Made by a program: the position numbers and the translations under genes | IMG/VR virus record: IMGVR_UViG_3300044631_000780 | Span: 1,672-65,671 of that record | Reading direction: 5' to 3' (one strand) | DNA: 64,000 bases | Source of the DNA: a virus | Taxonomy: Duplodnaviria > Caudoviricetes | Notes under the pieces: generated by a model | Told to the model about the DNA's origin: nothing | Database searches by the model: none | Seen by the model: the letters and a program-made list of their open reading frames with translations, nothing else | Shown here: piece by piece, positions 1 through 48,834 of the stretch | Layout: every line of letters starts with the position of its first letter | Numbering within the stretch: position 1 is the stretch's first letter

Positions 1-157
1 ATTCTTCATAATGGGCAACAAAATCGCTCTCGTCGTGCTCATCAATGAACTCCAACATGTCATCGAGAGCATAATTCTCTTCTAGCAATTCATCAACCTT
101 CTCAACAGTGTCAGCGTTGAGAGTTTCCTTGTAGTTAGCAGTCAAGGTGATGGACAT
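1..157 (-). CDS. acidic early protein, 5' part only (runs off window); possibly ArdA-like
   Basis: Hand translation MSITLTANYKETLNADTVEKVDELLEENYALDDMLEFIDEHDESDFVAHYEE; lies downstream of promoter copy 1. The ArdA-like call is from memory of similar cyanophage proteins only. Confidence 0.6.
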   Translation of the reverse strand, partial: MSITLTANYKETLNADTVEKVDELLEENYALDDMLEFIDEHDESDFVAHYEE

Positions 158-272
158 GATGTAAAGAATTGGTTTGAGATGGGGTGCCGATCTCCCCTAC
201 AGCAGTGAAGGATCTTACCTAGGACCTGTCCGATGTCGGGTGGTTTCGCTAGGAGGGTTCGCTTCTGAAAGT

Positions 273-330
273 ATTATAGGGGGTGAGGGGGGCAGATCAA
301 CGGGGTCTGTGCCACCTCTTCAACTGTCAC
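273..330 (-). promoter_or_regulatory. early promoter element copy 1 (palindrome 309-330; -10 TATAAT 273-278)
   Basis: gtgccacct-cttc-aactgtcac, 30 nt from the -10 box; TTGATC -35-like hexamer. Confidence 0.8.
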
Positions 331-554
331 CCCCCACCGTAGACATAGGAGACAATGCCAGCAGGATGATTCACACCCTCAATGACAGTAAACTCTCCAT
401 ACTTATCGAAATCATCAGCATGATAATCACCAAACTCTTTGATGAAGAAAACCCGAGCATCTTCTTTAGACTCGGCAGCGATCACACACATGCCAGAGGT
501 ATAATCAGAAAGAACTTCGTTCAGGATGTACAGATTCATTGCTTTGTTGTTCAT
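327..554 (-). CDS. hypothetical early protein
   Basis: ORF track; stop codon falls inside palindrome copy 1. Confidence 0.75.
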   Translation of the reverse strand: MNNKAMNLYILNEVLSDYTSGMCVIAAESKEDARVFFIKEFGDYHADDFDKYGEFTVIEGVNHPAGIVSYVYGGG

Positions 555-32239: not shown

Positions 32240-33433
32240 TTAGTATGCCCTTATAATCATTATGATTGTTTGAGATGGAGTATTTGTTTCCATTTGTAGA
32301 TTTAATGCTTTATCAATACTAGAAACATTTACTGTATATGATTGGATATTATTGAGTGCTATGTTAGTTGGTGCTCTCAATCCAGAACGAGTCATACTAA
32401 TATCAAAACTAAAATGATTGTGTGCTGCTAAGCTAGCTTCGGTAAAATTTTCTCCAGCGTGACTAAGATTAGTTGGATATGTTTCAGTAGTGTCACCATT
32501 TAAATAATTTGGTCTACCAAGAAGACTAGGATAAGCAATTGGAAATGTTCCAGTATGCGCTACTTCTTGGTGATTGTAGTTGTATGTATCTGAAAAAGCA
32601 CCAGTGTATGCTCCAGATGCTGGAATATTTCTGGTCAATCCAACAGCAGGAATTGTTGCTTGTTGAAATGTCTTTGTAGTATCAGTGAGAACCATTGTAT
32701 TCTCATCATAATAAGTGATCGGTCCATATCCATTTGTCCAAACATCTGGTCCATCAGCGGAAGTAACACCAGTTAAGTTTGCTGATTCGTAATTTGGAGA
32801 TCCAGAGACTTGATATGTTGGAGCTTCAAAAACTTGAACATATCTACCACTAGTTACAGCAGTTGTATATTGTCCACTATGTTTGTGACCTGGAGTATGG
32901 TCAATTCCCAATTTTCTACCAACCACATAATAAGTTTTAGACCAAGTTGGATCATTCAAACTGAATTCTGTAATTCTTCCAGCCATATTATCAATTGGAT
33001 CCATCTGAAAGATAAGATCAGTATCAGCACTATAAAGTGCTGGTGGAGTAACTCCAGTTCCATCTTCAGATATCAGACCACCAACAACATCATAAGCATT
33101 TGATTGATTGTATTGATACTTTGTTTCTAACAGATAATCTTTTTCAAGATCAACCATTGCTCTTCCGTTTAGATTTGGAACTCGGAAAAGATCACTTTCT
33201 TCAAAGTCAGGAAAATTTCCTTGAATAGCATCTTCAGTTGGTCCATAGGTATTACCAAGTATTGAAGCTAACAAAGGATATCTTTCTGCTGGATATGTAG
33301 ATCCATCACATAATATCCACCCATGTGGAACACCATTAGGATTATTTCCAGTAACGGAAGAGCTGCCGCCCCAGGGCATAATAGTACCCACTGGGGCGCT
33401 CTTCATTGTTTTTAGACGATTGTAGAATGCCAT
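32240..33433 (-). CDS. tail-collar domain fibre protein
   Basis: PVGTIMPW...PHGWILCDG...YPLLASILG...FRVPNL. Confidence 0.88.
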   Translation of the reverse strand: MAFYNRLKTMKSAPVGTIMPWGGSSSVTGNNPNGVPHGWILCDGSTYPAERYPLLASILGNTYGPTEDAIQGNFPDFEESDLFRVPNLNGRAMVDLEKDYLLETKYQYNQSNAYDVVGGLISEDGTGVTPPALYSADTDLIFQMDPIDNMAGRITEFSLNDPTWSKTYYVVGRKLGIDHTPGHKHSGQYTTAVTSGRYVQVFEAPTYQVSGSPNYESANLTGVTSADGPDVWTNGYGPITYYDENTMVLTDTTKTFQQATIPAVGLTRNIPASGAYTGAFSDTYNYNHQEVAHTGTFPIAYPSLLGRPNYLNGDTTETYPTNLSHAGENFTEASLAAHNHFSFDISMTRSGLRAPTNIALNNIQSYTVNVSSIDKALNLQMETNTPSQTIIMIIRAY

Positions 33434-36400
33434 CAGAGTTCAGTCAACCACCAACCTTGATACGTAGCAGGAATAAAGTTATCTCCATCAGTTTGTCCAA
33501 CATAGATTAGACCAAATGAAGCGTTCTTATTCTGAACTACTAGTTCTCCAGAAGCATATGGAGTTGATAAACCACCCAATCTAGTTCCTTCAGTATCACC
33601 TTGAATTGCTACTGGTTCACCTCCAACAATTGGAGCACGAATTACTAGAGAGTTGTTGTATGTTAGTTGTCCACCAACTTCAGTAATCCTGATTGTATCT
33701 CCAGTTTTTGGATTGGATGGTAAGGTCAGAACAAGAGCACCTGTAGAAGGAGCTACTGCTACAATATAATTTATATTGACTTGAAGAGTGGTATTTGCGT
33801 TCACAAACTTGGTGATATGACCACCATTTGAATTCTTCCATCCTTCATATCCAAAAGCATCAACAGAGCAATCTTGTCTAATTGTGAAATTCTTCGTTCC
33901 ACCATCTCCAAGATTTCTGATATCTAGGATCTTTTGAGATTGAGCAGCAATACTGGAACTAATACCAGCAACATCAAGCAGACGACCAACAAATGTATCA
34001 CCAAAGTTTGGTTCTACTCTAAACGTTGGTAAGAATGATCTATTACTAAACTGAATAGCATCTGGTTCTTCAACACAAGTTGTTGGGAACACTCTAAACA
34101 ATCCACTAACATCTGTAGCAGCATTGATAGAAAGTTTTCCTCCTTCAAAATGGTGCTCTTCGTTGTTAACTAGATTAATAATTGGAACATTGTTGTCAGT
34201 GCCGCTAATTCTAAAGTTAGATCCGACAAAATTTACATCATCATATACTGTTAGGCGACCATGATGATAATCTTTCTTGACTAGTTTTGTTCCACCATCA
34301 TTTGTGATTGTACTTGTAACTTCAAATACTTCACTGTCAATAACCATGAAATATTCACGATCCAAGAAGAATGGAACAAGATCACTGTTCTTTAATCCAA
34401 TTTCAATATTTGTTCCGCCAGTTGTTCCAATAGCAGATGTTGTAGTTGTTGTTTCTCTAATGAGAACTCTCCATACACTTTCACCATCTTGGTGAGTTTT
34501 AGCAGTTCCAGCAAGAGGAGAACGAGTTACAGGTAAGTAACCAGAGTTTCCAGAAGTTGCTACTGGATTTGAAGAAATTCTCATAAATTCTTCATTTCCA
34601 CCAGAACCGTACCCAACTAAGATATAATCACCATTGGCAAAATCACTAATATCATCAACTGGTAGTTGGGTTGCGCTTGTAGTAATCGCAGTAACAGTAT
34701 CAACAAATGTTGTTGCGATAGAGTTATCAACCTTTGGATCTTTCAAGATTACATAAACAGTTGCTCCACTGGAATGTGCCGCTACGCTAGTACCAAACTT
34801 TGCTCTCTGAGCAAGAATTGTTCCGCTAGGATTACCAACAATAGTGTCTCCAGAGCAAGCGTCAACAGAGAAAATATCACGAACTCTATCAGTAATACTG
34901 AACTTTTCATTCTTATTGGCAACAAATGTAATACCTTCCTGACTACCAGTTCCAGTGAATGGAAGATTTAGTGTAATTGTAGAACCGCTAATGCTTACAA
35001 CTTGTGGATCTGTTAGTCTAGTTTCACCAGAATCAATCGGGAATCTATTTTGAGTTAATGTTACAGTTCCGCCGCCTGTCACAATTTGAACATAATCTCC
35101 AACTTCAATACCAGAAGTATTCGTAACAGCAGTGATAGTTGTCAATCCAGCTTGAGCATTTCCAGTAAACTGCTGCGAAGAAGCAGTCTTACATCCACCA
35201 ACGAAAGTAAATGATCCATTGACAGTTAATTTGCCATTCTCTCCAGAAACACCATCATTACCAATAATTGTTTCACCAGTTACACTATCAACAGAGAAGA
35301 GAACGTTTCCATTTGGACATCCGCTTAGGATAGAGAATGTCTTGTTCTCTTGAACCAAAGTAGAAACTAGTTTAAATACCTCACCCTGATCAAATACTCC
35401 ATCACTATTTGTATCAGTACGATCAATAACAATATAGTCAACCCCAGTTCTTAAGGTTCCACCAAACGTTGCCAGATAAACATTTTCGGTAGTTCCAGAA
35501 GCATCAATTGATTGCTCAGTCCAAGTAGCATCAAACGCGATGTTACACTTATAAATTGGAGTTCTATTGTTTGGTTCATCTGGATGATTGGTCTTAACCG
35601 CTGTAAATGTTCCCAGTGGTCTTCTTTGAACTGTTAAGTAATATGGAGCAGTTTCAGCTCCCGCCAATCCACCAGGAGCAACACGTAGAATTTCTGGATG
35701 AGTTCCAGCAACAGAATCAACAACTGTATCAAGGATCAGATAATCACCCTCTCTGAAGTAATCTCCAGGTGGATTTAGAAGTGGTAAGTAGTATAGATCT
35801 CCAGTTAGTGCTGGAAGATCAGATCCTTCTGGACCACCACCAGGAATTAGTTCTTGGAAATCAGTGCTGCCCCAATCAGCAGAACCTGCTGTATCCAATC
35901 TATTAAAGTTAGGATCACTATCAGGAACTTGAAGAACATTAATCAAATCTACATTTTGATTAAATGTTGTTGGTCCAAGAATACCATCATCATGAGCAAA
36001 AGCGGTTGTTCCCAACTGTGCTCTATTGGCGGTGAATGAGAACGCAGCGACGCCACCACAGAGATGAACATTACCATTGAAAATTGTTTCACCATCAATC
36101 TCCAAACTATTTCTAATGGTTGTTGTTCCACCCTGACCAGCAATTCTAACCTCAGAAGCATTCAAGGCAAAATCCATCGTCTGGGTATTGCCAGAGAAGA
36201 AACTTACAATTCCTGCTTCTGTGCTTAGAGTTACAACTTGCTCTGGATTTGTTCTGTCACCACCAAGAGACTTAAATGAACCAAATGTTACATCTCCAGC
36301 AAACTTGACTTGTTTTGTTTCAAAGTCAACGTAGCTGAGTGATGATAGGCGATCATAAGCACCACCAATCTTGGTCTTAGAAATAGCAGCATCTCTATCA

Positions 36401-39400
36401 ATGTTACCAATGAATAGATTACTGTGATTTGCGCTATTACCGATCTTGATAAACTGATCGTTAGTAGCTTTATCTCCAATATAAATCCACTGATTAGCAG
36501 TTGTATGATCACCAATTCTAATTGTCTTAGAATAACCAGCAAGATTTAATCCACCAGTGTTGTCTCCACCAACGAATGTGCTGTCGTTTAGAAGATTGAA
36601 GGTTCCAGTAGTAATGCCAGTTCTGACTTCACCAGTAGCAGTGCCACTATCTGTGTAGATTTCAATATCTCTTTGGAATCTAGCATCTTCTGTAAATCTA
36701 GAATCACCAACAACTACAAGTGCTCTATTGAGTTGACTATTTGTAACTGATTGATTGGTATTAATTCCAAGTCTACCTAGGTTATTACCTCTGCCAGATT
36801 CGGAAATAGCAACCGTAGTAGTATCAACTCTTAAAGTGCTGTAGTTTGTTGGAGCAAGACTATCCCCACCAACTACAAGGGCGTCAGAAATCGCATTAAA
36901 TGTTCTGTTTGTTGGATTGGAGTTTGATAAGTAGTTATTTGGTGCTGTAGAAAGAGTTCTACCACTGATATATGCTTTACCAACAACATCAAGGTTAGCA
37001 CGAGGATCTGTTGTAGTAGGATCAACAAATCCATTAGCATATGCCGAGTGTGGAGAACGAGCAACAGTGTTGATGCCCAACTTATAGTTTCCAATGGATT
37101 CAGTTTCAGTTCTAAGTGCTTCAGAACCAATTACACCAACTTCCTTCCAAGAAGCATTTGAGAATTCAACACTTGGAGGTGTAGCTCCAATTGCTGTTCC
37201 AGCAATGATATCTGCCCAGTTCTCTACGGCAGCTGGAATTTGATCAATTACTTGGAAGTGAACATAATTATTAGTTGGCGAGAAAGCATCTCCTGGTTTG
37301 TTGTATACAACCCAAGTTAGATTTAGTCTAGGATCATAGTAGAAGTTGTTAACTCTGATTTGAGAACCAGAAGTGATACCAATATCTTGGTTTGTAATAT
37401 CAAGACCAGACTGACTATTCTTAAATGTTAGTTTTACTACATTGCTACCATCAAATGTAATTGTAAAGATGCTGTTATCAGCAATCTTTTGATAGTAGTT
37501 GGCAAGAATCCATCCAATAGATCCAGTTTTACCGATTTCAGAACCCTTAAGAAGAACATCACCAGGAACTGGTAATACACCACCATAAGTTACATATTGA
37601 GCAGAATTTACTCTGGTTCCACCATCAGCAACAAGAGGAGACTGGTTTGGAGTAATGTTTGCTGGAACACCAGAAGAAGTATGTGTTTGGAACATATACT
37701 TCTGTCCATTACCTCTGGCATTGAATTCAAATACAGCAGCGGTAACTTTATTCTTACTAATACGAATGTCACCAGCTGTTGGTGGTCTGAACGTTGTTCT
37801 ATCAAGACCTTGATCTTGCTCCAGTTGCGTAACTGGATCAACAGATGATACATTAGATCTGATGATTAGAACATCTCTTTGCTGAACTAGATCATTATCT
37901 TGTACAGCAATTAGAACTGGCGATTCAAACGAAGATACAAGAGTTCCATCTCCACCAACAACTGTTAGGTTCTGATTGAATGTAACTGGAGTATCAAATG
38001 TAGTAACTAGACCGCCAATTACATCATTCTCATCACCATCATCTTGTAAAGTCGCTGCGTCAATGAATGTTTCTTGACCAGTAATAGCATTGATTCTTCT
38101 ATTACCAATATAGAGATCACCCTGAGAGTTAATACCCGTGTAGAAGACGATACCAGCGTCTTGTTTCTTAGATTGGGCATAGAAGTCCTGCTCTGGTGTT
38201 AGAACGACTTCCTGACGCGCAGGGAGACCAGTAGAGTAGTTACCAGGACCGAAACCAAGGTATTCAAACGTATGGTTACCAGCACGAGCAATGGATGGTC
38301 TACGGAGTTCAACGTAGTAACGTTGATCATTAGCAACCGTGCTATCTCCAGAAATAGGAATTAAACGATCTTCCGATCCAGAAGTAGCATTTCCTTCCTG
38401 TGCTCTAATAGCATTAGATCCAGTGTAAGTGTTTTCAATGAAAGCTGGTTGACTGATAAGATCTTCAACAAGTTCTCTTGTTACAGAGTTCTTGTAATCG
38501 TTAACAGTAACAAGTCCATGAACATAGTTATCAGCGGCAGAGAATGCCTGTGGAGGATCAATCAGTGCTGCGTAATAATCCTTCTCTTCATTTGTAGTTC
38601 CATTGTTCTTAAACCAGAGAGGATCGTTTCTGTAGTTTAGAGGATATAGTCTGCTGACTGGTTGCGAGAACTTAAAGTTCTTGAAGTTGTTGATAACTCC
38701 AGCACCAGTTGGGAATGGAGAGATGTTACCACGTAGGCAAGTTAGATAGTAGATACCATCTTGCTGACCAGCAATACGGCGCTGTAGTGTTTCCGAAGCA
38801 AAGATATAGAATGTATCATCAATGATACCAGCATCTTCTACAGACTCAACATAGTATTCGATACCAGCGTCATCCTGAATGCGGTCACCAGGAGTAATGG
38901 TATAAACGTTGGCACCATTCTGTCTCCAGTAATATTCTGGATAACCCTTACGAATAAGAGTCTTCAGTGGCAACGATTTGCCCATATCCTGATCTTCCAG
39001 CATATCTGCGAAGACAGAACCTTGGGTAAATCTTACACTATCATACTCGCTATATTCTAGTTTACCACCACGAATATTCTTAATGATGAGGTAGTGATCA
39101 CCACCAACACTATAATAAGCATGAATGTTAGCAAGACCAGAGGAATATCCTGTAAATGTTACTTGGTTAGCAGTGATATTCTGAGTCTTGTTGGTTACAA
39201 AATCTCCACCTTGAGGAGCAGTGATCTTAATTGTTGTAAAGATCTCATTTCTCAAACCAGGGAAGTTCTTAGAGTCAACAGTGTGGTCATAAACTGTTAA
39301 TTCAAGATACTTAATATTAGAATTAAGAGCATCTGTTACATAACGACCACCTTGAATTGTTGCTTGAATACCAGAATTGAAACGAGCAAAAGCACGATAC

Positions 39401-42400
39401 TCAATACCAGCACCAGTCAAGTCTTTCTTGAATGGATCGTATGCTGCGTCAGTGTTAAGACCGTTCGTAGCAAACTGTGCTGCTGTGTATCCAATATATT
39501 CTCCAGCTTGAACTGGGTTTTCAAATCTAGCACCATACACAGAACCAGTAACTGGCTTGAGTAAGATCTTCTGAGGAATTAGTTTACGTGTATCGTCAGT
39601 TCTTGTCTTAAGAACAAATCCATTGATTGGATCTCTAGCATTCTGGAGATACTTAGGAATGACATAACGGATCTTATAAGTTCTATCGTCGGCTTCTCTA
39701 GTGTCATCTAAACGCTCATACCACATGTCCGTGGTTCTTGGTCTATCAGAATAATCAGATTGATTGATTCTCCAGAAAATATTCTCTTGCTGAACAGAAG
39801 ATGGTTGAGCAGTTACTTGATCCTTACACTGAATATACCACTTACCTGTTGTAGAAACAGAGTCAGTATAAGCAGGATCAAATCTCATTGGAGATCTACG
39901 CTTGTTAGCCCAAACATCAAATTTTAGTGAAGTTTGACCAGAAGCAAATGTAATTGGATTTACATTGTTGATCGCATCAGCATGTGTCTTGTGAATGGTG
40001 AATACTTTATCATTCTGATAACGAGCGAAGAATTCGATCTGAGGATTGATTCTACCGACATTAGAATTTGTGATGTCGGTAACAGCTACCGTGGGATCGT
40101 TAGCATAGGTGCTAGCAACAATTGGTAGAGATCCACCCTCAATTGCTCTAAAGAATACTCTATGTGGAGTTGTTGCTGCTGATGGAACGTCAAAAATGTG
40201 TGATACATCAGTCTCAATGCCAGCATTAACAGTATTTGTTAGATTACACTCATAGTTGTGTAATGTATACTTGTCATCGAGAACAAACTGATAGAGATCA
40301 ATTTCAACATCTGGATCAATACTGTCAGTTTCTGACGCATAGATGTAAATACCAGCAGCAGCATTCTCTTTAGAAGTTGCGAGCATCAGTTTTGTCTGAT
40401 CGCTTCCGTTAAAGAATGTAGTTGTACTGTAATCTGCTGGTTGAGTTCTTCTGCCAGGAGCAATTACATAGTAAGTTCTGTTTGGTTCAAATCCTTTTGG
40501 AAGTCTGATAAGACGCTTATCAATCTCAACATACTTACCAGTCTCAACATCAAATCTAGGACGAGGTACAAGTCTTACTGGTGTTCCAGTTTCAAAGTTA
40601 TGAGCATTTGTTGCTCCATATCCAGTAATATCAATCGTAAAGATTGTAGCACGAGAAGAAAGAAGTGCTGTGTTAACTGTCTGCTCTTGACGAGTAACAG
40701 TTCCAAGTCCACTGTTAATAATGGTTGTGATATTACCAACCAATGTGGTGATAGCATTAGCAACGTCGGCACATTCTCTTTGTGTTGGAGCTGATGGTGT
40801 ATATGCTTGAGTATCCTGAATAACATCTGGATTTGTATTCTCTGGTCCTACAGTTACTCTCTGTGGTAGAGTATTTGCCCAAGATCCTTTCTCATATGTA
40901 AAGTATAGTCTCGTTGTTGTGCTACTTTGTAGAGCATTTACTGTATTTCCAGTATCAAATCTAGAATTAGCAACTCCAAGTTCAATCGTAGTGTTACTTA
41001 CAATTCTCTTTACAAATGTATCTTTTGGAATATTTGTATAAATTGGAACCGCATTGTTTTGAAGTAGACCATTAACGTAAGGAGTTGGAGATGAAGCATA
41101 CTCAACAACTCTCATACCAATTACAATGCCACGAGTATCAGAAACGTTAACGAGAGCAGATCCAGTAGTTGTAACACAATTAATGGCAAGAACATCAAAG
41201 TTACGCATTGCTGCGATTGCCAGTTGTCCAACATAATTCCAAGCATCAATTGTCTCCGTCTTTTCTCCATCAATATATGTTAGATTATTTCCAACATAAT
41301 ATGCTTCACCAGCCTGAATGGAGTTAATATTTCCGCCAAGTCTCAAGTCGTTGACAACAGCATCAACAATATATGAAACGTCACGATAACACTTAGATTG
41401 CTTAGCATTTACAATAAAGTCTCCAGCATTTGCTGTTGGCAATCCAGCAAGAGATCCAGTGCCGATAGCATCGGTAACAATATCAAATAAGTTTTCAATT
41501 GATGAGCGAACATTAGCGCAATCCCACTCTCCATTAGTTAGAGGTGGAAGAGTATTGAGATTGCCAGCTTGAAGAGCATCACAAACAATACCAACTAATG
41601 TATCAACTGTTGCTAGAACATCAGAACAATTGCCAAGAGTATAGGTTGTTGGTTGTGCTGGGGCAGTTCTTGTAATACCAGTTAGATTTCCTACACCACC
41701 ATCGTTTCCAATTGCTTGTAGAAGAATGCCAAATAGGGTGTCAAGTGCTCCAACAGCAGAACCACACTTTGGTAGTAGTTCATCAGAATCCCAGTCATTA
41801 ACAATAGTAAGATCCTTCTTCTGCGTGAAAGTATTGCCAGATGTAACTGTTACTGTTTCGTTTCTAAGAACTTGAATTGCGATGTTCTTAACTTCCGTGA
41901 ATACTTTAGCAGCTTCATCACGCTCAGCATCAAGGAATGTCTGAATTGGTTGACCATTGAATATGTTTGTTACATAGATATTCGCTGCGTCATAAGTCTT
42001 GGAGTTTCCACCAAACTTGACATCCCACATCACTTCTTCTAGAACATCATAAACATCATCGAGACAATCTTGCTCAGTATTTCCAGTTTGTGGAACATAT
42101 GAAGGATATGCTGCCTTCATGCGTAGATATGCTTCCTTCGCAATGAATTCCTTGTTATCAAGAACAAGATTATAGGCATCAGCATGAATGTCAGCAACAA
42201 ATGCTGGATCTTCTGTGTTATCAAGTGTGAGTGTTAAGTCTCTTACATAATATTGATTGTTGATGGCACGATTCATCAAGTCAGCAGATCTCTTGAATGC
42301 TGTAATTGATGGATTAATTTCATTAACAAGACCGTTTGGAAGTAAGGTTGTATTATTAGTAAAATACTCCTTAGTTGCTGCGATGGTATATTCATTACCA

Positions 42401-45400
42401 CCAAACCAGAGATCCTGAGCAACAGCATCAACAATGTGACCGATATCTCTACGGCACTTGGTTTCACCAGTCAAGAATGTTCCAGCATTCTCAGCAGGAA
42501 GTGAATTGAGATTTCCAGCAGTTACAGCAGCAGTTACAATGCCAGTGAGAGTAGTGATTGCTGACTGGACGTTTGAACATGAAGATGAACTCTGATTATT
42601 GCCAGTCGCAGGATCTGCTGTGACAGTAAGATCTTTGTGGTAGAGTTGGTTTGTAATTGCTCTACGCATGAATTCAGCAGCTTCATTGAATGCTACATTG
42701 CTCTGAGCAGTTTCTCCAACTAAACCATTGCTGATTGGAGTTGTAACGTTAGTAAAATACTGCTGAATAAATGTTCTGGTGTGCTTATTACCGCCAGTGA
42801 ATAGGTCAACAGAAATGGCATCAATAAAGTATCCGATATCACGAGCACACTTTCTCATGCCAGCAGGAGCAGATCCTTTGTTGATCGTCTGTGGCATTGA
42901 ATTTAGATTGCCATCGTTAATAATTGTAGTTACGATGCCAGCAAGAGTGTCAATAGCAGAGCGAACGTTAGCACAAGAATTAGCATCAGTGTTGCTACCA
43001 GTAGCAGGATCAGCAGTAATAGTAAGATCCTTAACTGTGAGTTGGTTAGTGATAGCAAGTCTCATCAAGTTTCTTGCTTGATTGAAAGCATAGATGCTTT
43101 CTGTAACTTCACCAACTAGACCATTGCTGATTGGAGTTGTAGCATTTGAGAAATACTCAGCAGCAAATCTGTATGAATACTCGTTACCACGAATGAAAAG
43201 GTCAAGCGAGATCGCATCAACAAAGTATCCAAGGTCTCTCTTACACTTCGTTTCAGTAGAAGCAACACCAGGATACAGAGTGACCATATTGGTCCAAGCA
43301 GTATTGACAATTTCTGTCTTGTTCTGCTGAATTAGACGGTAGCTATCATAGAAACGCGAATCTGCTGTAGTTTGAGCATCGCCAGGGAAGTAGAAATCTG
43401 GATAATCAACAGCGATCTTAGCAAGTGCTCTATCAGTAATCTCTTTGCTATTGCGACGAATGAGACGGAACGCATCAGCAAAACGAGATTGTGCGTTGCT
43501 CTGAGTATCACCAGGCATGTAGAAATCTGGATGATAAACAGCAACTTCAGCAAGTGCTGCGTCAAGAATAAATTCTCTGTTAGCAAGAATACGATTACGA
43601 GCATCCTTATAACGACCAGCAGGATCTTGCTTATTTGCGGCATCAACTGTTACACCTTCACTATTCAATCCTAAAGCAGCAGATCCAGTGCTTCCTGCGA
43701 TCACACCATATGGACTTAGGATGCTAGGGTTCTCTGGATCATAAATTGCTGCTTTAACTGTAAGTAGATTAGCAACTGCTTTCTTACAAAGATCTCTTGC
43801 TCTGTTAAAAGCAAATACAGCATAGGTTTCTTCACCAACCAGACCGTTCTGTAATGGCGTACCGTCACCATTGAAGTAGAACTTGGTAGCTTCGATGGTG
43901 TTGAGGTTTCCGCCGTCTCTAAGGTCTTCTGCGATGGCATCTACAATAAATCCAATGTCACGCTTACACTTACCATTTGCAACACCTTGGATATTTCCAA
44001 TACCAAAAGTTTCAACCATTTGGTTGAATGCTGTGTCAACGATTTCTTGGCGGTTCGCAAGGATTAAGTTGCGAGCATCGAAGTAACGACCAGCAGCAGG
44101 ATTTAGACCAGGGTTGACATAAGGAATGTTTTGAAGTGCTGGATACTTCTCAAGAATATATCCAAAAACTTCCTCTTGGATCATTGTGCGATTGCTTTCA
44201 ATCAAGTTAGCAGCATCAGCGTAGATGCCATTGATTGAGATACCAGAAGGATTTAAAATTGATCCTTTCGCAATATACTTAACAAAACCAGTTGGTTCTA
44301 ATTCTACGTTAAATACTTCTCCAGTTCCAGCAGCAGGATCAAGTTTTACATATAGTTTGTCACCAGTTTTTGCTCCAAGTCTATAACCATCAATGGTCGC
44401 AGCTGGACGCTCTGTTGGAATAATAATGTCATCGCTACCCAAGAACAACTTAGTATAGTTGTTAGGATTTTGAATTGTTCCTTGAATATCAATCGTATAA
44501 TAAGTAACTTTTTTGATATTCTCAGCAGTTTCCTCTGCTTGCTGTGGTGGAATGATGTGAGTAATGTATCCACCTTTGTCTTGGTTGAACGCAAATCCTT
44601 TGAAACCAATCGCGTGTAGAGAGGTATTACCAAAGTTTGAGTTGGAGTTGGTGATGGACATGTCTCCACCACTTTCCATTAGGAAGTGATCAGCAAAACC
44701 AACGGCGAAGATGGAAACGTTCTGAATGAATGCGTCTTCTGAAGCACGAACGTGGAAGTTTCTCCACTCATCCTTCCAGTAACTATCACCCTTTGCGTGA
44801 TAAGGAACAGTAGCAAATGCGTCTGTTAGTGATGCTTGATTCCAAGTGTTTGAATACTCATCGTAACGGATGAATGCTCTATCGTCTTTCTGTAGAGAAA
44901 CACCAGTGTACTGAGCAATAACCATGGATCTAAATCCAGTGGCTTTTAGACCATTTGCCCAGATACCACAAATACCCCAGGTAGAACGAATTGAAACGTT
45001 GAAGACGTATGGAGAAGCAGATTCGACGCTATCAACCTCAGCAAGAGTTTGTGCGTTTTGTCCAAGGGCAGGAGTTGTATCTACACTGATTGTTTGTCCA
45101 GAAACAATGTTAGTGCCAATTCCACCAACAACGAATGGAACTTCATATTTAAATTTGCGAGGGTCATTCTCGTCAATCTCTTTGATTGGGAAAAATCCTT
45201 CAAGAACATCATCAATATTTGTATTTGAAATAGCAACAAATTGACCAGCAAAATATCCATGATCAACTTTAGTCGTTACTTCAACTTCAGTTGTGGATGC
45301 TGGAATGCTAGGATCAGTTGTCGCATCTACAAACTTCAGTGATTCAATAACACGAGAGTCAGATAAAGGACCAACAATTCTATTTTCTTGAATGTTGAAA

Positions 45401-46167
45401 TCAAATTCACCTGGATCATCAATTGTTGGTTGATAAGATGAAAATGCCTTAGCGATCTTTCTGTAGAATAATCCTAGCTCTTCACTATCAGCATATTCAA
45501 ATACTGTTAGTTTGTGGTGAGAGAAATTAGGAGCAGTAAGTTTGGTGAAGTCTTGAGGATCATAATAAACTTCACCAGTTCCTTCAGCAGAATTGAAAAG
45601 AGGAGATTCAGAAGTTGTTTGACCATCTTTAATAGTGAACTGCCAGAAGTAACATCCACCAGTTACATTAAAGATCGCAGAACGTGGGACAGTTACAGAA
45701 GCAGGATCAGGAACGTAGAGAGGTCTGATCGTTGTTCTACGAAGGTCATAACCAACAAGTGAAGAACCACGAGGAATAATAGCACCGCCTTCAGTGTTAT
45801 TAAACTTGTATAGTACGTTGTTTGGATTGGAGATATCAAGAATGCTATTATCAGTCCAAGCATTTAGAGCTTGATCAAATCCAAATACATCAATGCCATT
45901 AGTATCTACAAGACCAGGACGGTTATCAATATAGTGAATACCAGGCATCAGCATGATGCTGAACTGGTCAAAACGGTCATTATTCTTACCAGGAAGGTAA
46001 GAATATCTTGCGATTTCTAGGAAAGCACGCTGAATACTCTTGAATGGTGTAATTGGTGAATTACCTCTGTTGGATAACGCATCGGTTGCGTTAAAATCAT
46101 CAGGAGAAACATAAAGATACTTACCAGTTTTTGAACTGATAAGATTATCCAGACGTGTTAATGGCAT
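33433..46167 (-). CDS. giant (4244 aa) virion structural protein with six phycobiliprotein-like segments
   Basis: Late promoter upstream; N-terminal YVSP...PFKSIQRA beta-helix cap; C-terminal T4 baseplate/fibre-type LTLPSNPKTGDTIRI...GWW; CxRD repeats at about aa 650-1820. Confidence 0.85.
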   Translation of the reverse strand: MPLTRLDNLISSKTGKYLYVSPDDFNATDALSNRGNSPITPFKSIQRAFLEIARYSYLPGKNNDRFDQFSIMLMPGIHYIDNRPGLVDTNGIDVFGFDQALNAWTDNSILDISNPNNVLYKFNNTEGGAIIPRGSSLVGYDLRRTTIRPLYVPDPASVTVPRSAIFNVTGGCYFWQFTIKDGQTTSESPLFNSAEGTGEVYYDPQDFTKLTAPNFSHHKLTVFEYADSEELGLFYRKIAKAFSSYQPTIDDPGEFDFNIQENRIVGPLSDSRVIESLKFVDATTDPSIPASTTEVEVTTKVDHGYFAGQFVAISNTNIDDVLEGFFPIKEIDENDPRKFKYEVPFVVGGIGTNIVSGQTISVDTTPALGQNAQTLAEVDSVESASPYVFNVSIRSTWGICGIWANGLKATGFRSMVIAQYTGVSLQKDDRAFIRYDEYSNTWNQASLTDAFATVPYHAKGDSYWKDEWRNFHVRASEDAFIQNVSIFAVGFADHFLMESGGDMSITNSNSNFGNTSLHAIGFKGFAFNQDKGGYITHIIPPQQAEETAENIKKVTYYTIDIQGTIQNPNNYTKLFLGSDDIIIPTERPAATIDGYRLGAKTGDKLYVKLDPAAGTGEVFNVELEPTGFVKYIAKGSILNPSGISINGIYADAANLIESNRTMIQEEVFGYILEKYPALQNIPYVNPGLNPAAGRYFDARNLILANRQEIVDTAFNQMVETFGIGNIQGVANGKCKRDIGFIVDAIAEDLRDGGNLNTIEATKFYFNGDGTPLQNGLVGEETYAVFAFNRARDLCKKAVANLLTVKAAIYDPENPSILSPYGVIAGSTGSAALGLNSEGVTVDAANKQDPAGRYKDARNRILANREFILDAALAEVAVYHPDFYMPGDTQSNAQSRFADAFRLIRRNSKEITDRALAKIAVDYPDFYFPGDAQTTADSRFYDSYRLIQQNKTEIVNTAWTNMVTLYPGVASTETKCKRDLGYFVDAISLDLFIRGNEYSYRFAAEYFSNATTPISNGLVGEVTESIYAFNQARNLMRLAITNQLTVKDLTITADPATGSNTDANSCANVRSAIDTLAGIVTTIINDGNLNSMPQTINKGSAPAGMRKCARDIGYFIDAISVDLFTGGNKHTRTFIQQYFTNVTTPISNGLVGETAQSNVAFNEAAEFMRRAITNQLYHKDLTVTADPATGNNQSSSSCSNVQSAITTLTGIVTAAVTAGNLNSLPAENAGTFLTGETKCRRDIGHIVDAVAQDLWFGGNEYTIAATKEYFTNNTTLLPNGLVNEINPSITAFKRSADLMNRAINNQYYVRDLTLTLDNTEDPAFVADIHADAYNLVLDNKEFIAKEAYLRMKAAYPSYVPQTGNTEQDCLDDVYDVLEEVMWDVKFGGNSKTYDAANIYVTNIFNGQPIQTFLDAERDEAAKVFTEVKNIAIQVLRNETVTVTSGNTFTQKKDLTIVNDWDSDELLPKCGSAVGALDTLFGILLQAIGNDGGVGNLTGITRTAPAQPTTYTLGNCSDVLATVDTLVGIVCDALQAGNLNTLPPLTNGEWDCANVRSSIENLFDIVTDAIGTGSLAGLPTANAGDFIVNAKQSKCYRDVSYIVDAVVNDLRLGGNINSIQAGEAYYVGNNLTYIDGEKTETIDAWNYVGQLAIAAMRNFDVLAINCVTTTGSALVNVSDTRGIVIGMRVVEYASSPTPYVNGLLQNNAVPIYTNIPKDTFVKRIVSNTTIELGVANSRFDTGNTVNALQSSTTTRLYFTYEKGSWANTLPQRVTVGPENTNPDVIQDTQAYTPSAPTQRECADVANAITTLVGNITTIINSGLGTVTRQEQTVNTALLSSRATIFTIDITGYGATNAHNFETGTPVRLVPRPRFDVETGKYVEIDKRLIRLPKGFEPNRTYYVIAPGRRTQPADYSTTTFFNGSDQTKLMLATSKENAAAGIYIYASETDSIDPDVEIDLYQFVLDDKYTLHNYECNLTNTVNAGIETDVSHIFDVPSAATTPHRVFFRAIEGGSLPIVASTYANDPTVAVTDITNSNVGRINPQIEFFARYQNDKVFTIHKTHADAINNVNPITFASGQTSLKFDVWANKRRSPMRFDPAYTDSVSTTGKWYIQCKDQVTAQPSSVQQENIFWRINQSDYSDRPRTTDMWYERLDDTREADDRTYKIRYVIPKYLQNARDPINGFVLKTRTDDTRKLIPQKILLKPVTGSVYGARFENPVQAGEYIGYTAAQFATNGLNTDAAYDPFKKDLTGAGIEYRAFARFNSGIQATIQGGRYVTDALNSNIKYLELTVYDHTVDSKNFPGLRNEIFTTIKITAPQGGDFVTNKTQNITANQVTFTGYSSGLANIHAYYSVGGDHYLIIKNIRGGKLEYSEYDSVRFTQGSVFADMLEDQDMGKSLPLKTLIRKGYPEYYWRQNGANVYTITPGDRIQDDAGIEYYVESVEDAGIIDDTFYIFASETLQRRIAGQQDGIYYLTCLRGNISPFPTGAGVINNFKNFKFSQPVSRLYPLNYRNDPLWFKNNGTTNEEKDYYAALIDPPQAFSAADNYVHGLVTVNDYKNSVTRELVEDLISQPAFIENTYTGSNAIRAQEGNATSGSEDRLIPISGDSTVANDQRYYVELRRPSIARAGNHTFEYLGFGPGNYSTGLPARQEVVLTPEQDFYAQSKKQDAGIVFYTGINSQGDLYIGNRRINAITGQETFIDAATLQDDGDENDVIGGLVTTFDTPVTFNQNLTVVGGDGTLVSSFESPVLIAVQDNDLVQQRDVLIIRSNVSSVDPVTQLEQDQGLDRTTFRPPTAGDIRISKNKVTAAVFEFNARGNGQKYMFQTHTSSGVPANITPNQSPLVADGGTRVNSAQYVTYGGVLPVPGDVLLKGSEIGKTGSIGWILANYYQKIADNSIFTITFDGSNVVKLTFKNSQSGLDITNQDIGITSGSQIRVNNFYYDPRLNLTWVVYNKPGDAFSPTNNYVHFQVIDQIPAAVENWADIIAGTAIGATPPSVEFSNASWKEVGVIGSEALRTETESIGNYKLGINTVARSPHSAYANGFVDPTTTDPRANLDVVGKAYISGRTLSTAPNNYLSNSNPTNRTFNAISDALVVGGDSLAPTNYSTLRVDTTTVAISESGRGNNLGRLGINTNQSVTNSQLNRALVVVGDSRFTEDARFQRDIEIYTDSGTATGEVRTGITTGTFNLLNDSTFVGGDNTGGLNLAGYSKTIRIGDHTTANQWIYIGDKATNDQFIKIGNSANHSNLFIGNIDRDAAISKTKIGGAYDRLSSLSYVDFETKQVKFAGDVTFGSFKSLGGDRTNPEQVVTLSTEAGIVSFFSGNTQTMDFALNASEVRIAGQGGTTTIRNSLEIDGETIFNGNVHLCGGVAAFSFTANRAQLGTTAFAHDDGILGPTTFNQNVDLINVLQVPDSDPNFNRLDTAGSADWGSTDFQELIPGGGPEGSDLPALTGDLYYLPLLNPPGDYFREGDYLILDTVVDSVAGTHPEILRVAPGGLAGAETAPYYLTVQRRPLGTFTAVKTNHPDEPNNRTPIYKCNIAFDATWTEQSIDASGTTENVYLATFGGTLRTGVDYIVIDRTDTNSDGVFDQGEVFKLVSTLVQENKTFSILSGCPNGNVLFSVDSVTGETIIGNDGVSGENGKLTVNGSFTFVGGCKTASSQQFTGNAQAGLTTITAVTNTSGIEVGDYVQIVTGGGTVTLTQNRFPIDSGETRLTDPQVVSISGSTITLNLPFTGTGSQEGITFVANKNEKFSITDRVRDIFSVDACSGDTIVGNPSGTILAQRAKFGTSVAAHSSGATVYVILKDPKVDNSIATTFVDTVTAITTSATQLPVDDISDFANGDYILVGYGSGGNEEFMRISSNPVATSGNSGYLPVTRSPLAGTAKTHQDGESVWRVLIRETTTTTSAIGTTGGTNIEIGLKNSDLVPFFLDREYFMVIDSEVFEVTSTITNDGGTKLVKKDYHHGRLTVYDDVNFVGSNFRISGTDNNVPIINLVNNEEHHFEGGKLSINAATDVSGLFRVFPTTCVEEPDAIQFSNRSFLPTFRVEPNFGDTFVGRLLDVAGISSSIAAQSQKILDIRNLGDGGTKNFTIRQDCSVDAFGYEGWKNSNGGHITKFVNANTTLQVNINYIVAVAPSTGALVLTLPSNPKTGDTIRITEVGGQLTYNNSLVIRAPIVGGEPVAIQGDTEGTRLGGLSTPYASGELVVQNKNASFGLIYVGQTDGDNFIPATYQGWWLTEL

Positions 46168-46326: not shown

Positions 46327-46342
46327 ATGTTTTTTGAAACAA

Positions 46343-46417
46343 CACTCTCTGTAGGATTCGAACCTACGACACCTTGATCCGTAGTCAAGTGCTCTATATC
46401 CACTGAGCTAAGAGAGT
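46343..46417 (-). tRNA. tRNA-Arg(ACG)
   Basis: Cloverleaf; anticodon arm CTTGA-CTACGGA-TCAAG. Confidence 0.92.
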
Positions 46418-46420
46418 AGG

Positions 46421-46492
46421 CGAAGGGTGAGAGATTCGAACTCCCATCGCAAGGTTTTGGAGACCTGCATCTTACCGTTAGACCAACCCAAC
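46421..46492 (-). tRNA. tRNA-Trp(CCA), two U-U mismatches in the acceptor stem
   Basis: Anticodon loop CTCCAAA; T-loop TTCGAAT; acceptor GTTGGGT/ACCCTTC. Confidence 0.8.
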
Positions 46493-46567
46493 TGGTTCTG
46501 AGGGTAGGATTCGAACCCACGAATGGCGGGACCAAAACCCGCTGCCTTACCGCTTGGCGACCTCAGA
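46493..46567 (-). tRNA. tRNA-Gln(TTG)
   Basis: Cloverleaf with encoded CCA. Confidence 0.93.
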
Positions 46568-46568
46568 A

Positions 46569-46642
46569 TGGGGTGACGTATGGGAATTGAACCCATCTAG
46601 GTGGTTCCACAAACCACTGCCTTACCACTAGGCTAACGTCAC
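46569..46642 (-). tRNA. tRNA-His(GTG)
   Basis: Cloverleaf; C73 and encoded CCA; position -1 is T rather than G. Confidence 0.92.
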
Positions 46643-46643
46643 A

Positions 46644-46717
46644 TAGCAGTAGGTAGATTTGAACTACCGACCATAGGCGTATGAAACCCGTGCTCTGCCA
46701 GACTGAGCTATACTGCT
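46644..46717 (-). tRNA. tRNA-Met(CAT)
   Basis: Cloverleaf; loop TTCATAC; weak anticodon stem. Confidence 0.82.
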
Positions 46718-46721
46718 AAAA

Positions 46722-46802
46722 TGGACGCTGACCTGCTGGTTACTCTTTCTGCGGAGGGAGGCGTCAGTCTTTTATATCCGAGCAAGCACCTTGCTGGAGT
46801 CC
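46722..46802 (-). ncRNA. candidate structured ncRNA A in the tRNA array
   Basis: GGAC/GTCC closing stem ending in CCA; AGCAAG/CTTGCT hairpin; CTGAC/GTCAG stem; fills a tRNA-sized slot. Confidence 0.55.
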
Positions 46803-46804
46803 TA

Positions 46805-46891
46805 CGGAAGATGTTGGATTCGAACCAACGGAAAGATTACTCCTTCGACGGTTTAGCAAACCGTTGCTTTAGACCTCTCAGCCAATCTTCC
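46805..46891 (-). tRNA. tRNA-Ser(GCT)
   Basis: Cloverleaf with long variable arm; G73. Confidence 0.93.
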
Positions 46892-46895
46892 AAAG

Positions 46896-48245: not shown

Positions 48246-48319
48246 AGCCCAAGGTCGGACTTGAACCGACGACCTACGGTTTACAAAACCGTTGCTCTAT
48301 CCAGCTGAGCTACTCAGGC
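48246..48319 (-). tRNA. tRNA-Thr(TGT)
   Basis: Anticodon arm ACGGT-TTTGTAA-ACCGT; first 10 nt overlap the end of cpeT. Confidence 0.92.
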
Positions 48320-48834
48320 ATTTTTACAAATTTGAATGCTCCCCAGTCAGAACCCCAAATTTTTTCATGTGTCTCTGCGTGTAATCCACGATCAACAACA
48401 TGATATTCAGTTTTAGTAAGAGTGACTTCGTTTTGAACATAGGTTTTTATACCTTGCCAATCAACCCAGCACTCACAGGTGGAGGTTCCACCCTGGAACA
48501 TTTCAGGTCCCGTCTGTGTCATAATAATATCACATCCCTCTCGGTATGTCAAGATGTCATCTGTGATGAGTTCAAGGTTTTGACACTCAACAAATCTAGA
48601 AGCATCTTGGATTTCGTAGTTTTTGAGACGGAACTGCCCCTTCTCAACCTCTACATCAATCACAAACTGACGATATGGGTTATTTAGAAGGTAATTGTAT
48701 GCTTGTTCTCCATAGAAACGATAATCGGAAATTTTCCGATGTTGTACCCGAATATGAGCATAACGAGTAGGATGAGATTGTGCTTGCCGTTTGTTAGCAA
48801 AGGTTCCTTCAAGATATTCAAGAAACTGGTTCAT
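48310..48834 (-). CDS. cpeT: CpeT/CpcT (T-type) phycobilin lyase
   Basis: FANKRQAQSHPTRYAHI...YGEQAY...PYRQ...GCD...DRG...WGS..GAFKF. Confidence 0.92.
   Translation of the reverse strand: MNQFLEYLEGTFANKRQAQSHPTRYAHIRVQHRKISDYRFYGEQAYNYLLNNPYRQFVIDVEVEKGQFRLKNYEIQDASRFVECQNLELITDDILTYREGCDIIMTQTGPEMFQGGTSTCECWVDWQGIKTYVQNEVTLTKTEYHVVDRGLHAETHEKIWGSDWGAFKFVKMPE

What the first reader, a model, noticed from the sequence alone, without database searches (positions are those of the whole stretch)
40720..44230. The six domains are nested like brackets, not tandem
Seen: the order of segments is N N M N N N M C M C M N M C C C M C. It parses with nothing left over as D1[N651 D2[N697 M734 D3[N855 D4[N898 D5[N941 M975 C1065] M1107 C1197] M1238 D6[N1330 M1368 C1468] C1514] C1550] M1593 C1799]. 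N855, N898 and N941 are exactly 43 aa apart, and the M-to-C distance is 90 aa in both D4 and D5. Inference: repeated insertion of the domain into two loops of itself, giving an out-and-back branched stalk. This nesting would also explain why linear domain searches could miss the homology.
Basis: partly seen in the sequence, partly recalled or inferred. Interest (0 to 1): 0.7.

Follow-up and report, generated by a model that had tools for sequence, protein, structure and literature searches.

The report
Nested phycobiliprotein-like domains in phage fibre
A giant cyanophage tail-fibre protein carries six copies of a light-harvesting-pigment-protein fold inserted one inside another like Russian dolls, and they keep the pigment-attachment residues next to a phage pigment-lyase gene, so the fibre itself may bind pigment.

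Summary
The region is aa 640-1830 of one 4244-aa ORF (window 33433-46167, minus strand), an orthologue of the S-RSM4 'putative short tail fibre'. My own HMMs find exactly 6 N, 6 M and 6 C segments at the stated positions. Their order parses as nested brackets; 160 of 2,000,000 shuffles do.

Of 121 homologues, 99 parse at E<0.01 and 102 at E<1, in 9 architectures of 5 to 13 domains (nesting depth measured up to 10). A split-chain fold (ipSAE 0.87, best control 0.00) puts N651 against M1593 and M734 against C1550, as predicted.

It is a phycobiliprotein-like globin fold (Pfam PF00502; profile against PDB; VIA Z 16.9, 2.2 A over 139 residues). N is helices A/B, M is E-G and C is H. Children sit in the B-E and G-H loops.

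The M cysteine and its aspartate, the C cysteine and the N aspartate are 95-100% conserved and map to the two bilin sites of beta-phycobiliproteins. A cpeT lyase gene lies 2.1 kb upstream, with the same synteny in 9 isolates and 5 metagenomic records.

Bilin binding is inferred, not shown.

The parts
33433..46167 (-). Giant 4244-aa tail-fibre/baseplate protein gene that holds the nested region
   Evidence: ORF. PHROGs phrog_4527 'short tail fiber protein' (aa 1795-4244) and phrog_529 'tail fiber protein' (aa 1-619). Orthologue of S-RSM4 SRSM4_214.
44107..44229 (-). N651 (aa 647-687): N segment of outermost domain D1, helices A/B
   Evidence: HMM hit. Predicted to touch M1593 in 17 of the 25 best pairs.
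43972..44094 (-). N697 (aa 692-732): N segment of D2
   Evidence: HMM hit; coordinates checked.
43735..43971 (-). M734 (aa 733-811): M segment of D2, helices E-G, with the Cys-x-Arg-Asp motif
   Evidence: HMM hit. Predicted to touch C1550 in 4 of the 25 best pairs.
43495..43620 (-). N855 (aa 850-891): N segment of D3
   Evidence: HMM hit.
43366..43491 (-). N898 (aa 893-934): N segment of D4
   Evidence: HMM hit. Two helices with block pLDDT 81-95 in the D4[D5] model.
43267..43359 (-). N941 (aa 937-967): N segment of innermost domain D5
   Evidence: HMM hit. Aligned to phycobiliprotein helices A/B.
43009..43254 (-). M975 (aa 972-1053): M segment of D5
   Evidence: HMM hit. Part of the Z 16.9 match to phycobiliprotein beta chains.
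42892..42981 (-). C1065 (aa 1063-1092): C segment (helix H) of D5
   Evidence: HMM hit.
42613..42855 (-). M1107 (aa 1105-1185): M segment of D4
   Evidence: HMM hit. Best Pfam PF00502 stretch aa 1089-1137.
42490..42582 (-). C1197 (aa 1196-1226): C segment of D4
   Evidence: HMM hit.
42220..42465 (-). M1238 (aa 1235-1316): M segment of D3
   Evidence: HMM hit.
41674..42192 (-). D6 (aa 1326-1498): contiguous N1330-M1368-C1468 unit of a second sequence type, sitting in the M-C loop of D3
   Evidence: HMM hits; alignment A2.
41542..41634 (-). C1514 (aa 1512-1542): C segment of D3
   Evidence: HMM hit.
41434..41526 (-). C1550 (aa 1548-1578): C segment of D2
   Evidence: HMM hit; predicted contacts with M734.
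41164..41397 (-). M1593 (aa 1591-1668): M segment of D1
   Evidence: HMM hit; predicted contacts with N651.
40783..41160 (-). Beta-rich insert (aa 1670-1795) in the M-C loop of D1; not a phycobiliprotein-like unit
   Evidence: Beta strands at model residues 1019-1118 with block pLDDT 81-91.
40687..40779 (-). C1799 (aa 1797-1827): C segment that closes D1
   Evidence: HMM hit; in the predicted interface.
48310..48834 (-). cpeT (T-type bilin lyase family), 2.1 kb upstream on the same strand; a possible functional partner
   Evidence: PF06206 at 145 bits. Same synteny elsewhere.

Best explanation
Residues 640-1830 of this giant cyanomyovirus fibre protein are six phycobiliprotein-like (globin-fold) domains nested inside each other. 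Each domain has three pieces. N is helices A/B and carries a conserved Asp. M is helices E to G and carries Cys-x-Arg-Asp. C is helix H, preceded by a Cys. A child domain sits in the parent's N-M loop (the B-E loop of phycobiliproteins) or its M-C loop (the G-H loop). The result is D1[D2[D3[D4[D5] D6]]] plus a beta domain in D1's M-C loop.

The chain enters and leaves the region through D1. The array must therefore be a side arm hanging off the fibre, not a link in its length (inferred). Its length changes by whole domains at the tip.

Shown here: the segment families, the parse in this protein and its homologues, and the fold of D5. Predicted here: the D1 and D2 closures, and the confident fold of D4[D5]. 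Inferred: the arm geometry, and growth by register-shifted double recombination between the similar N copies and the similar MC copies.

On function, I put retention of covalent bilin binding at about 0.4, with the M Cys at the Cys84-like site and the C Cys at the beta-153/155-like site. I put a purely structural arm at about 0.5.
For: Segments and parse. Homologues: 99 of 121 parse at E<0.01 and 102 of 121 at E<1, in 9 valid architectures; nesting depth was measured up to 10. Seven-domain relatives differ from this protein by a coordinated +43 aa (one N) and +130-146 aa (one M+C) at the tip. Other large inserts fall in the N-M or M-C loops in most cases.

Fold: PF00502 at 34.5 bits against a cut-off of 22.2. 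A profile of 26 contiguous units matched 141 PDB sequences at E<=10. The 60 shown are all phycobiliproteins, the best at E 4.7e-5, aligning profile positions 8-64 to residues 40-102 with the Cys on the canonical bilin Cys. VIA-align: all 50 rows are phycobiliproteins, with Z 15.2-16.9, for example 7s96_B at 2.2 A over 139 residues. The same holds on the whole-region model.

Closure: split-chain fold scored 0.87 with best of 3 controls 0.00. That mark was reached by 58 of 80 solved complexes and 2 of 110 mismatched pairs. Runs share at least 78% of contacts, and partner pLDDT is at least 77. All 25 best pairs fit the nested pairing. D4[D5] gave pLDDT 89.1 and pTM 0.89. An independent BFVD model of the S-CAM1 homologue superposes at TMq 0.89 and 1.6 A.

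Bilin residues: C-segment Cys in 100% of 894 segments, M Cys 95.4% and M Asp 96.6% of 945, N Asp 95.3% of 916. cpeT lies 2.1 kb upstream.
Against: No contact map or coordinates were available. The D3 and D4 closures rest only on model confidence. Every structural-search row fell on the contiguous D5.

The split-chain pass is a completion of a fold with many solved examples, so it may reflect likeness to phycobiliproteins. Any N copy might also complement any MC copy.

The whole-region model is only moderate (pLDDT 76.7, pTM 0.62).

Sequence similarity to phycobiliproteins is confined to N plus the start of M. A profile of the rest finds none, and the single D5 sequence finds none. NCBIfam phycocyanin alpha scores 18.7 bits against a cut-off of 269.

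19-22 of 121 homologues do not parse.

Against bilin binding: the equivalence of the C Cys with beta-153/158 and of the N Asp with beta-39 is arithmetic from alignment ranges, not a residue-level alignment. cpeT is detectable in 86 phage records, against 353 with these domains. P-SSM2 has bilin reductase genes (PMC2984593, passages) but no such domain.
Confidence: 0.85

Rival explanations
1. The N copies and the M+C copies are two independent repeat families. The N copies form a helical-hairpin array and the M+C copies form truncated domains, and they do not pair. On this view the bracket parse is a by-product of two tandem arrays.
For: Long runs such as N10 followed by (MC)7 look like tandem arrays.
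Against: Counts stay balanced across 9 architectures of 5 to 13 domains. Contiguous N-M-C units fold as one phycobiliprotein-like domain in which N supplies helices A/B. N651 is predicted to pack on helices of M1593.
Confidence: 0.03
2. The pairing is real but occurs between chains. In the assembled, probably oligomeric, fibre the N segments of one chain complete the M+C segments of a neighbouring chain (domain swap).
For: None directly. Fibres are usually oligomers (general knowledge), and the split-chain fold shows that the pieces can complement in trans.
Against: The tip domains D5 and D6 are contiguous, with N-M linkers of only a few residues, which favours closure within one chain. The monomer models are confident.
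Confidence: 0.07
3. On function, the domains are a purely structural, pigment-free scaffold co-opted from a host phycobiliprotein. The conserved Cys and Asp residues would serve folding, metal binding or disulfides, and cpeT lies nearby only through inherited gene order.
For: No pigment evidence exists. cpeT is found in 86 phage records against 353 with the domain. In 7 isolate groups present in both listings the two genes are tens of kb apart by best match: P-HM1, P-HM2, S-RIM12, S-B64, S-H35, ACG-2014g and S-SCSM2R. The X-Y helices are lacking, and the second half of the domain has no sequence similarity to phycobiliproteins.
Against: Three of the 9 invariant columns of 26 diverse units map to hallmark positions of the two bilin sites (the M Cys, its Asp, and the C Cys), and the N Asp is kept in 95% of N segments. 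In the split-chain fold Cys734 is not in the interface that holds Cys1550, so a disulfide within the domain is not predicted.
Confidence: 0.5

Closest known systems
Phycobiliprotein beta subunits (C-phycocyanin beta, phycoerythrin beta; Pfam PF00502)
   Same: Globin-like fold from helix A to helix H, with Z up to 16.9 and 2.1-2.2 A over 131-139 residues. The Cys-x-Arg-Asp motif aligns with the canonical bilin cysteine. By range arithmetic a second Cys precedes helix H where beta-153/158 sits, and an Asp sits where beta-39 does.
   Different: There is no X-Y helical hairpin. Identity is only 12-21%. The second half is unrecognisable by sequence. The unit is a domain within a 4244-aa virion protein, interrupted by other copies of itself, rather than a free 160-180-aa subunit of an antenna. 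Chromophore binding is unknown.
ApcE (core-membrane linker), alpha-allophycocyanin domain with the PB-loop
   Same: A phycobiliprotein domain that tolerates a 50-70-residue insertion and still carries a covalently bound bilin with or without that loop (PMC11789067, passages read). The position of that loop between helices B and E is recalled, not seen in the passages.
   Different: The insert there is a loop, not a folded copy of the same domain, and there is one level only. It is a cellular antenna protein.
S-RSM4 'putative short tail fibre' SRSM4_214 and homologues in Kyanoviridae
   Same: Orthologue, 54.5% identical over 99% of the region, with seven domains in the same nested order (P0026). 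The same g5 - cpeT - tRNAs - fibre synteny is present.
   Different: It has one more domain at the tip. The name is by similarity only. My searches found no description of its domain structure.
Discontinuous or nested domain insertions in other proteins, and fold-back arms such as SMC proteins (both recalled, not tested)
   Same: A parent domain is built from sequence pieces that flank an inserted domain, and the chain runs out and back.
   Different: Here the insert is the same fold as the parent and the recursion is 5 deep (measured up to 10 in relatives). I know of no precedent. One listing search gave none (titles and abstract starts only).

Membership tests
Phycobiliprotein family (Pfam PF00502) | Sequence match above Pfam's gathering score | tested here: met
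   Whole protein scores 34.5 bits against a cut-off of 22.2, E 2.4e-8. No single stretch passes alone. PF00502 is precomputed on 92 of 120 listed homologues by my count.
Phycobiliprotein family (Pfam PF00502) | Globin-like fold with helices A, B, E, F', G and H | tested here: met
   D5 gives Z 15.2-16.9, and all 50 rows are phycobiliproteins. The discontinuous domains D1-D4 were not tested by any row.
Phycobiliprotein family (Pfam PF00502) | N-terminal X-Y helix hairpin used for alpha/beta pairing | tested here: not met
   Units start at about phycobiliprotein residue 31-40. In some rows the parent's second N helix occupies the X/Y position (model ranges 17..194 and 268..445).
Phycobiliprotein family (Pfam PF00502) | Bilin-attachment cysteine at position 84 with the following Arg and Asp | tested here: met
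   The HMM alignment puts the M Cys on the canonical Cys. Cys is kept in 95.4% and Asp in 96.6% of 945 M segments. D6 has Asp in place of the Arg.
Phycobiliprotein family (Pfam PF00502) | Covalently bound bilin chromophore | not testable with these tools
   Needs virion or recombinant protein spectroscopy, or mass spectrometry.
Named phycobiliprotein subfamilies (NCBIfam equivalogs) | Score above the curated cut-off | tested here: not met
   TIGR01338 phycocyanin alpha scores 18.7 bits against a cut-off of 269.45.
Nested (discontinuous) domain architecture | Balanced segment counts and a valid bracket parse in this protein and its homologues | tested here: met
   99-102 of 121 parse; the chance of a valid order is 8.3e-5.
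Nested (discontinuous) domain architecture | Sequence-distant pieces of one domain touch in three dimensions | tested here: inconclusive
   Predicted for D1 and D2: ipSAE 0.87 against 0.00, with 25 of 25 best pairs as expected. D3 and D4 rest only on model confidence. These are predictions, not measurements.
T4-type short tail fibre (gp12-like) | Homology to gp12 or a demonstrated role as short tail fibre | not tested
   Only PHROG and GenBank labels exist. The N-terminal 640 aa has no PDB relative by sequence.

The most novel reading that the evidence does not exclude
The nested arm is a covalently pigmented antenna on the virion. Each domain would keep the two bilin sites of a beta-phycobiliprotein. 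The phage's own CpeT, encoded just upstream, would load the C-segment cysteines, and host lyases would load the Cys84-like ones. This phage-borne chromoprotein would then be the unknown light sensor behind light-dependent adsorption of cyanomyoviruses.
Probability: 0.2. Interest if true: 0.95.

Novelty: new variant of a known kind. Interest (0 to 1): 0.8.

Why it matters
There are three reasons.

**Architecture.** The same fold is inserted into its own loops five levels deep here, and up to ten measured in relatives. I could find no description of such a recursive architecture. It shows how a repeat protein can grow by whole domains at a tip while keeping both ends of the chain at the base.

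**Origin.** A host light-harvesting fold has been recruited into virion baseplate and fibre proteins. It appears in 353 phage records, all from cyanophages.

[quoted passage not shown] Phage cpeT also has no established substrate; that last point is recalled, because the key paper is not held. Conserved bilin-site residues in a fibre protein, next to cpeT, turn both puzzles into direct experiments.

Tried and rejected
- **Single D5 sequence against PDB sequences:** 0 hits at E<=10.
- **Profile of the second half of the unit (A6) against PDB:** no phycobiliprotein; only Rab27B at E 0.22, taken as chance.
- **ESM Atlas with D5:** no usable hit.
- **Earlier findings of this scan:** nothing held.
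- **VIA-align on both models, to catch a discontinuous domain:** every row chose the contiguous D5, so D1-D4 were not tested this way.
- **Search for stand-alone single-domain forms (89-336 aa):** 41 hits. By their segment content and internal starts they look like fragments of giant genes. No canonical phycobiliprotein appeared at E<=10 on that database scale.
- **cpeT in genome contigs, hoping to reach cyanobacterial phycobiliprotein genes for a residue-level alignment:** one locus only, a phage-like contig in a MAG. The equivalences with beta-39 and beta-153/158 therefore remain range arithmetic.
- **Bilin reductase PF05996 in the window's own record:** none, but the record is only 34% complete.
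- **N-terminal 640 aa against PDB:** nothing credible.
- **Covariation or paralogue matching to assign each N to an MC:** considered and dropped. Any fixed positional pairing would look conserved among orthologues.
- **Gasper et al. 2017 on phage CpeT:** not held, so statements about it are recalled.
- **Supplementary files of papers:** not consulted.


Full report
**The object**

The finding lies inside one open reading frame of 4244 codons on the minus strand, window 33433-46167. PHROGs place the first 619 residues in a 'tail fiber protein' family and residues 1795-4244 in a 'short tail fiber protein' family. A database search found 570 giant relatives, among them the 4482-aa 'putative short tail fibre' of Synechococcus phage S-RSM4. 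The window is part of a 65.7-kb virus record estimated to be 34% complete.

**Checking the observation**

The three segment kinds align as three families. HMMs built from them and rebuilt on homologues find exactly 6 N, 6 M and 6 C in the 4244 residues and nothing elsewhere, with domain E-values from 1e-9 to 2e-37.

- D1 = N651 / M1593 / C1799
- D2 = N697 / M734 / C1550
- D3 = N855 / M1238 / C1514
- D4 = N898 / M1107 / C1197
- D5 and D6 are contiguous.

Only 1428 of 17,153,136 orders of 6+6+6 letters are valid. 160 of 2,000,000 shuffles were valid.

**Homologues**

I annotated 121 proteins: the query and the 120 listed relatives. With strict thresholds and simple merging of split M hits, 93 parse. 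With a better merge 99 parse at E<0.01, and 102 parse at E<1. There are nine distinct valid architectures:
- 7 domains in 48 proteins
- 6 domains, this protein's form, in 21
- 12 domains as N10(MC)7NN(MC)5 in 16
- 5 domains in 12
- 5 singletons of 7, 9, 10, 12 and 13 domains.

Nesting depth was measured up to 10.

The 19 failures are all near-misses. In some, one M is split by an insert of several hundred residues. In others, one to four N or C copies go undetected. The rest are proteins cut at an end. I saw no homologue with a gross violation, but the failures have not been resolved one by one.

Among IMG/VR loci the 7-domain forms differ from this protein by two coordinated insertions: 43 aa (one N) and 130-146 aa (one M+C), 45 residues apart at the tip. 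Together they amount to one whole domain added in the innermost N-M loop. Most other large insertions fall in M-C loops (after aa 1055/1058, 1187 and 1504) or N-M loops.

**What the unit is**

Pfam scores the protein at 34.5 bits against 'Phycobilisome protein' PF00502 (cut-off 22.2). The best stretch lies on an M segment and covers profile positions 55-106.

A profile of 26 diverse contiguous N-M-C units (alignment A2) matched 141 distinct PDB sequences at E<=10. The 60 shown are all phycobiliproteins, the best at E 4.7e-5. Profile positions 8-64 align with residues 40-102, that is helix B, the B-E loop and helix E. The unit's cysteine falls on the canonical bilin cysteine followed by Arg-Asp.

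The piece D4[D5] (aa 891-1232, 40-sequence alignment) folds with pLDDT 89.1 and pTM 0.89. In VIA-align all 50 rows are phycobiliproteins, mostly beta subunits, with Z 15.2-16.9. Examples are 7s96_B at 2.2 A over 139 residues and 2vjr_B at 2.0 A over 131 residues, running to the last residue of the chain. This is above the tool's caution level for helical proteins.

So N corresponds to helices A/B, M to helices E through G, and C to helix H. The two insertion sites are the B-E loop and the G-H loop. The X-Y hairpin of true phycobiliproteins is absent. In some rows the parent's second N helix lies where X/Y would be.

Results that limit the claim:
- D5 alone finds nothing in PDB by sequence.
- The second half of the unit finds no phycobiliprotein by sequence.
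- NCBIfam's phycocyanin-alpha model scores far below its cut-off.
- The ESM Atlas gave nothing.

This is a divergent relative of the fold, not a member of any named subunit family.

**Do the distant pieces meet?**

I had no access to coordinates or contact maps, and every structural-search row landed on the contiguous D5. I therefore folded the outer shell as two chains. Chain 2 was aa 640-815 (N651, N697, M734) and chain 1 was aa 1545-1832 (C1550, M1593, beta insert, C1799). Each came with its own alignment, and D3-D6 were left out.

The score was 0.87 (runs 0.87, 0.90, 0.84) against 0.00 for the best of 3 controls. That mark was reached by 58 of 80 solved complexes and 2 of 110 mismatched pairs in the tool's calibration. 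The runs share at least 78% of contacts, and the partner's pLDDT is at least 77.

Of the 25 pairs with least expected error, 17 join M1593 to N651, 4 join C1550 to M734, and 4 join aa 1763-1764 to N651. This is the nested pairing. The alternative, first N with first M, would instead put N697 on M1593.

There are caveats. This is a prediction. It is the completion of a fold with many solved examples, so it may pass by likeness. Paralogous copies might complement each other.

The whole region (aa 640-1830) folds with pLDDT 76.7 and pTM 0.62. Confidence is low only in linkers, and most helical blocks of the outermost pieces score 74-89. An independently made BFVD model of the S-CAM1 homologue superposes on my D4[D5] model with TMq 0.89 and 1.6 A over 343 columns.

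**Consequences of the topology (inferred)**

The chain enters at N651 and leaves after C1799, both parts of D1. The array is therefore a side arm of the fibre, and its copy number changes the arm and not the N-to-C length of the fibre.

Balanced growth is hard to obtain by one tandem duplication. It is easy by a double crossover between misaligned copies: one exchange within the N run and one within the MC run, shifted symmetrically about the tip. It could also arise by insertion of a copy of the tip domain into its own N-M loop.

**Conserved residues**

Across the 121 proteins:
- The cysteine before helix H is present in 100% of 894 C segments.
- The M cysteine is present in 95.4% of 945 M segments, and the aspartate three residues later in 96.6%.
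- The N aspartate is present in 95.3% of 916 N segments.

Among only 9 invariant columns of the 26 diverse units, 3 are these Cys, Asp and Cys positions.

The M Cys aligns with the canonical Cys84 site. The other two equivalences come from range arithmetic:
- Model residue 194 aligns with residue 172 of phycocyanin beta and with 177 of phycoerythrin beta. The C Cys at model residue 175 then falls at 153 and 158.
- Profile position 4 aligns with beta residue 35. The N Asp at profile position 8 then falls at beta-39.

That these positions are the second bilin-attachment cysteine and its partner aspartate is recalled from the phycobiliprotein literature. A review confirms that T-type lyases serve Cys-153 of phycocyanin beta (PMC10452541, passages read).

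In the split-chain fold, Cys1550 lies in the interface next to the start of N697, while Cys734 is not in the interface. This fits that geometry and argues against a disulfide within the domain.

**The neighbouring lyase gene**

A cpeT gene (PF06206, 145 bits) lies at window 48310-48834 on the same strand, 2.1 kb upstream. It is separated from the fibre gene by 14 tRNA genes.

The same arrangement holds in the following records:
- 5 of 5 other metagenomic records examined. The gaps of about 0.4-1.9 kb are my arithmetic from locus ranges.
- S-RSM4, where cepT, 5 tRNAs and one small ORF precede the fibre gene.
- 8 further isolates where cpeT ends 1.0-3.2 kb before the first match to the domain region: ACG-2014i, -j and -e, S-CAM3, Syn1, S-RIM44 and S-CAM1, and S-PM2.

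It does not hold in P-HM1, P-HM2, S-RIM12, S-B64, S-H35, ACG-2014g or S-SCSM2R. There the best domain match is tens of kb from cpeT.

The domain region matches 353 phage records, all cyanophages. cpeT matches 86. The link is therefore not general.

In three reference phages the two go together. P-SSM2 has neither. P-SSM4 has weak matches to both. S-PM2 has 13 domain matches in two giant ORFs and a cpeT.

**Literature**

Four full-text searches returned no paper whose title or abstract start describes phycobiliprotein-like domains in phage virion proteins. The combinations were cyanophage + tail fiber + phycobiliprotein; cyanophage / phycobilisome protein / PF00502; phycobiliprotein-like + phage; and cyanophage + virion + globin-like. 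Apart from PMC2984593, where I read passages, the listed papers were not opened. Papers in subscription journals are not covered.

Light-dependent adsorption is documented for S-PM2, P-HM1 and P-HM2. P-SSM2 still adsorbs in the dark. The effect does not depend on host photosynthesis and is ascribed to host receptors and/or tail fibres (PMC6628666 and PMC2984593, passages read). ApcE shows that a phycobiliprotein domain can carry a 50-70-residue insertion and still bind bilin (PMC11789067, passages read).

**Verdict**

The nested reading is supported by comparative and predicted-structure evidence. It still lacks a contact map for D3 and D4, and it lacks any experiment. The new element is the identity of the unit and the possibility that the arm carries pigment.

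Noticed in passing
window 46342-48319 and 49143-49369: Seventeen tRNA genes on the minus strand. Fourteen lie between the fibre gene and cpeT, and three lie upstream of cpeT. This explains the higher G+C of 46-48 kb.
   Followed up: partly
window 51460-54339 (minus): A 959-aa ORF with a Gp5 N-terminal OB domain and a Calx-beta domain, probably the baseplate hub. S-RSM4 has g5 at the matching place.
   Followed up: no
window 40783-41160 (aa 1670-1795), and homologues in L022-L070: Beta-rich inserts occupy M-C loops. Here one sits in D1. Relatives carry further inserts of 80-430 aa after aa 1058, 1187 and 1504. Their fold was not identified.
   Followed up: no
NC_006884 (P-SSM4) 16642-17064: A 148-aa frame matches the CpeT family in two stretches (37 and 23 bits), although a review states that P-SSM4 lacks cpeT (PMC2984593, passage).
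   Followed up: no
P-HM1 and P-HM2, about 57 kb; other cyanophage records: The same domain type occurs in genes annotated 'gp7 baseplate wedge initiator', 'virion structural protein' and 'large exoprotein', in up to 5 places per genome. S-PM2 has it in two giant ORFs of 3340 and 3792 aa.
   Followed up: partly
L082 (genome contigs): The only cpeT relative found in the prokaryote genome collection sits on a 4.4-kb contig of a MAG labelled Lewinella. At 63% identity to the phage cpeT it is probably a phage contig binned by mistake.
   Followed up: no
aa 794 (within window 43735-43971): A further cysteine in helix G of M734 is kept in at least 90% of 50 orthologues and lies in the predicted interface with the C1550/M1593 chain.
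   Followed up: no
P0122-P0162: All 41 short database 'proteins' with this domain look like pieces of giant genes, with partial segment strings and internal starts. This suggests frequent frameshifts or fragmented assembly of these repetitive genes.
   Followed up: partly
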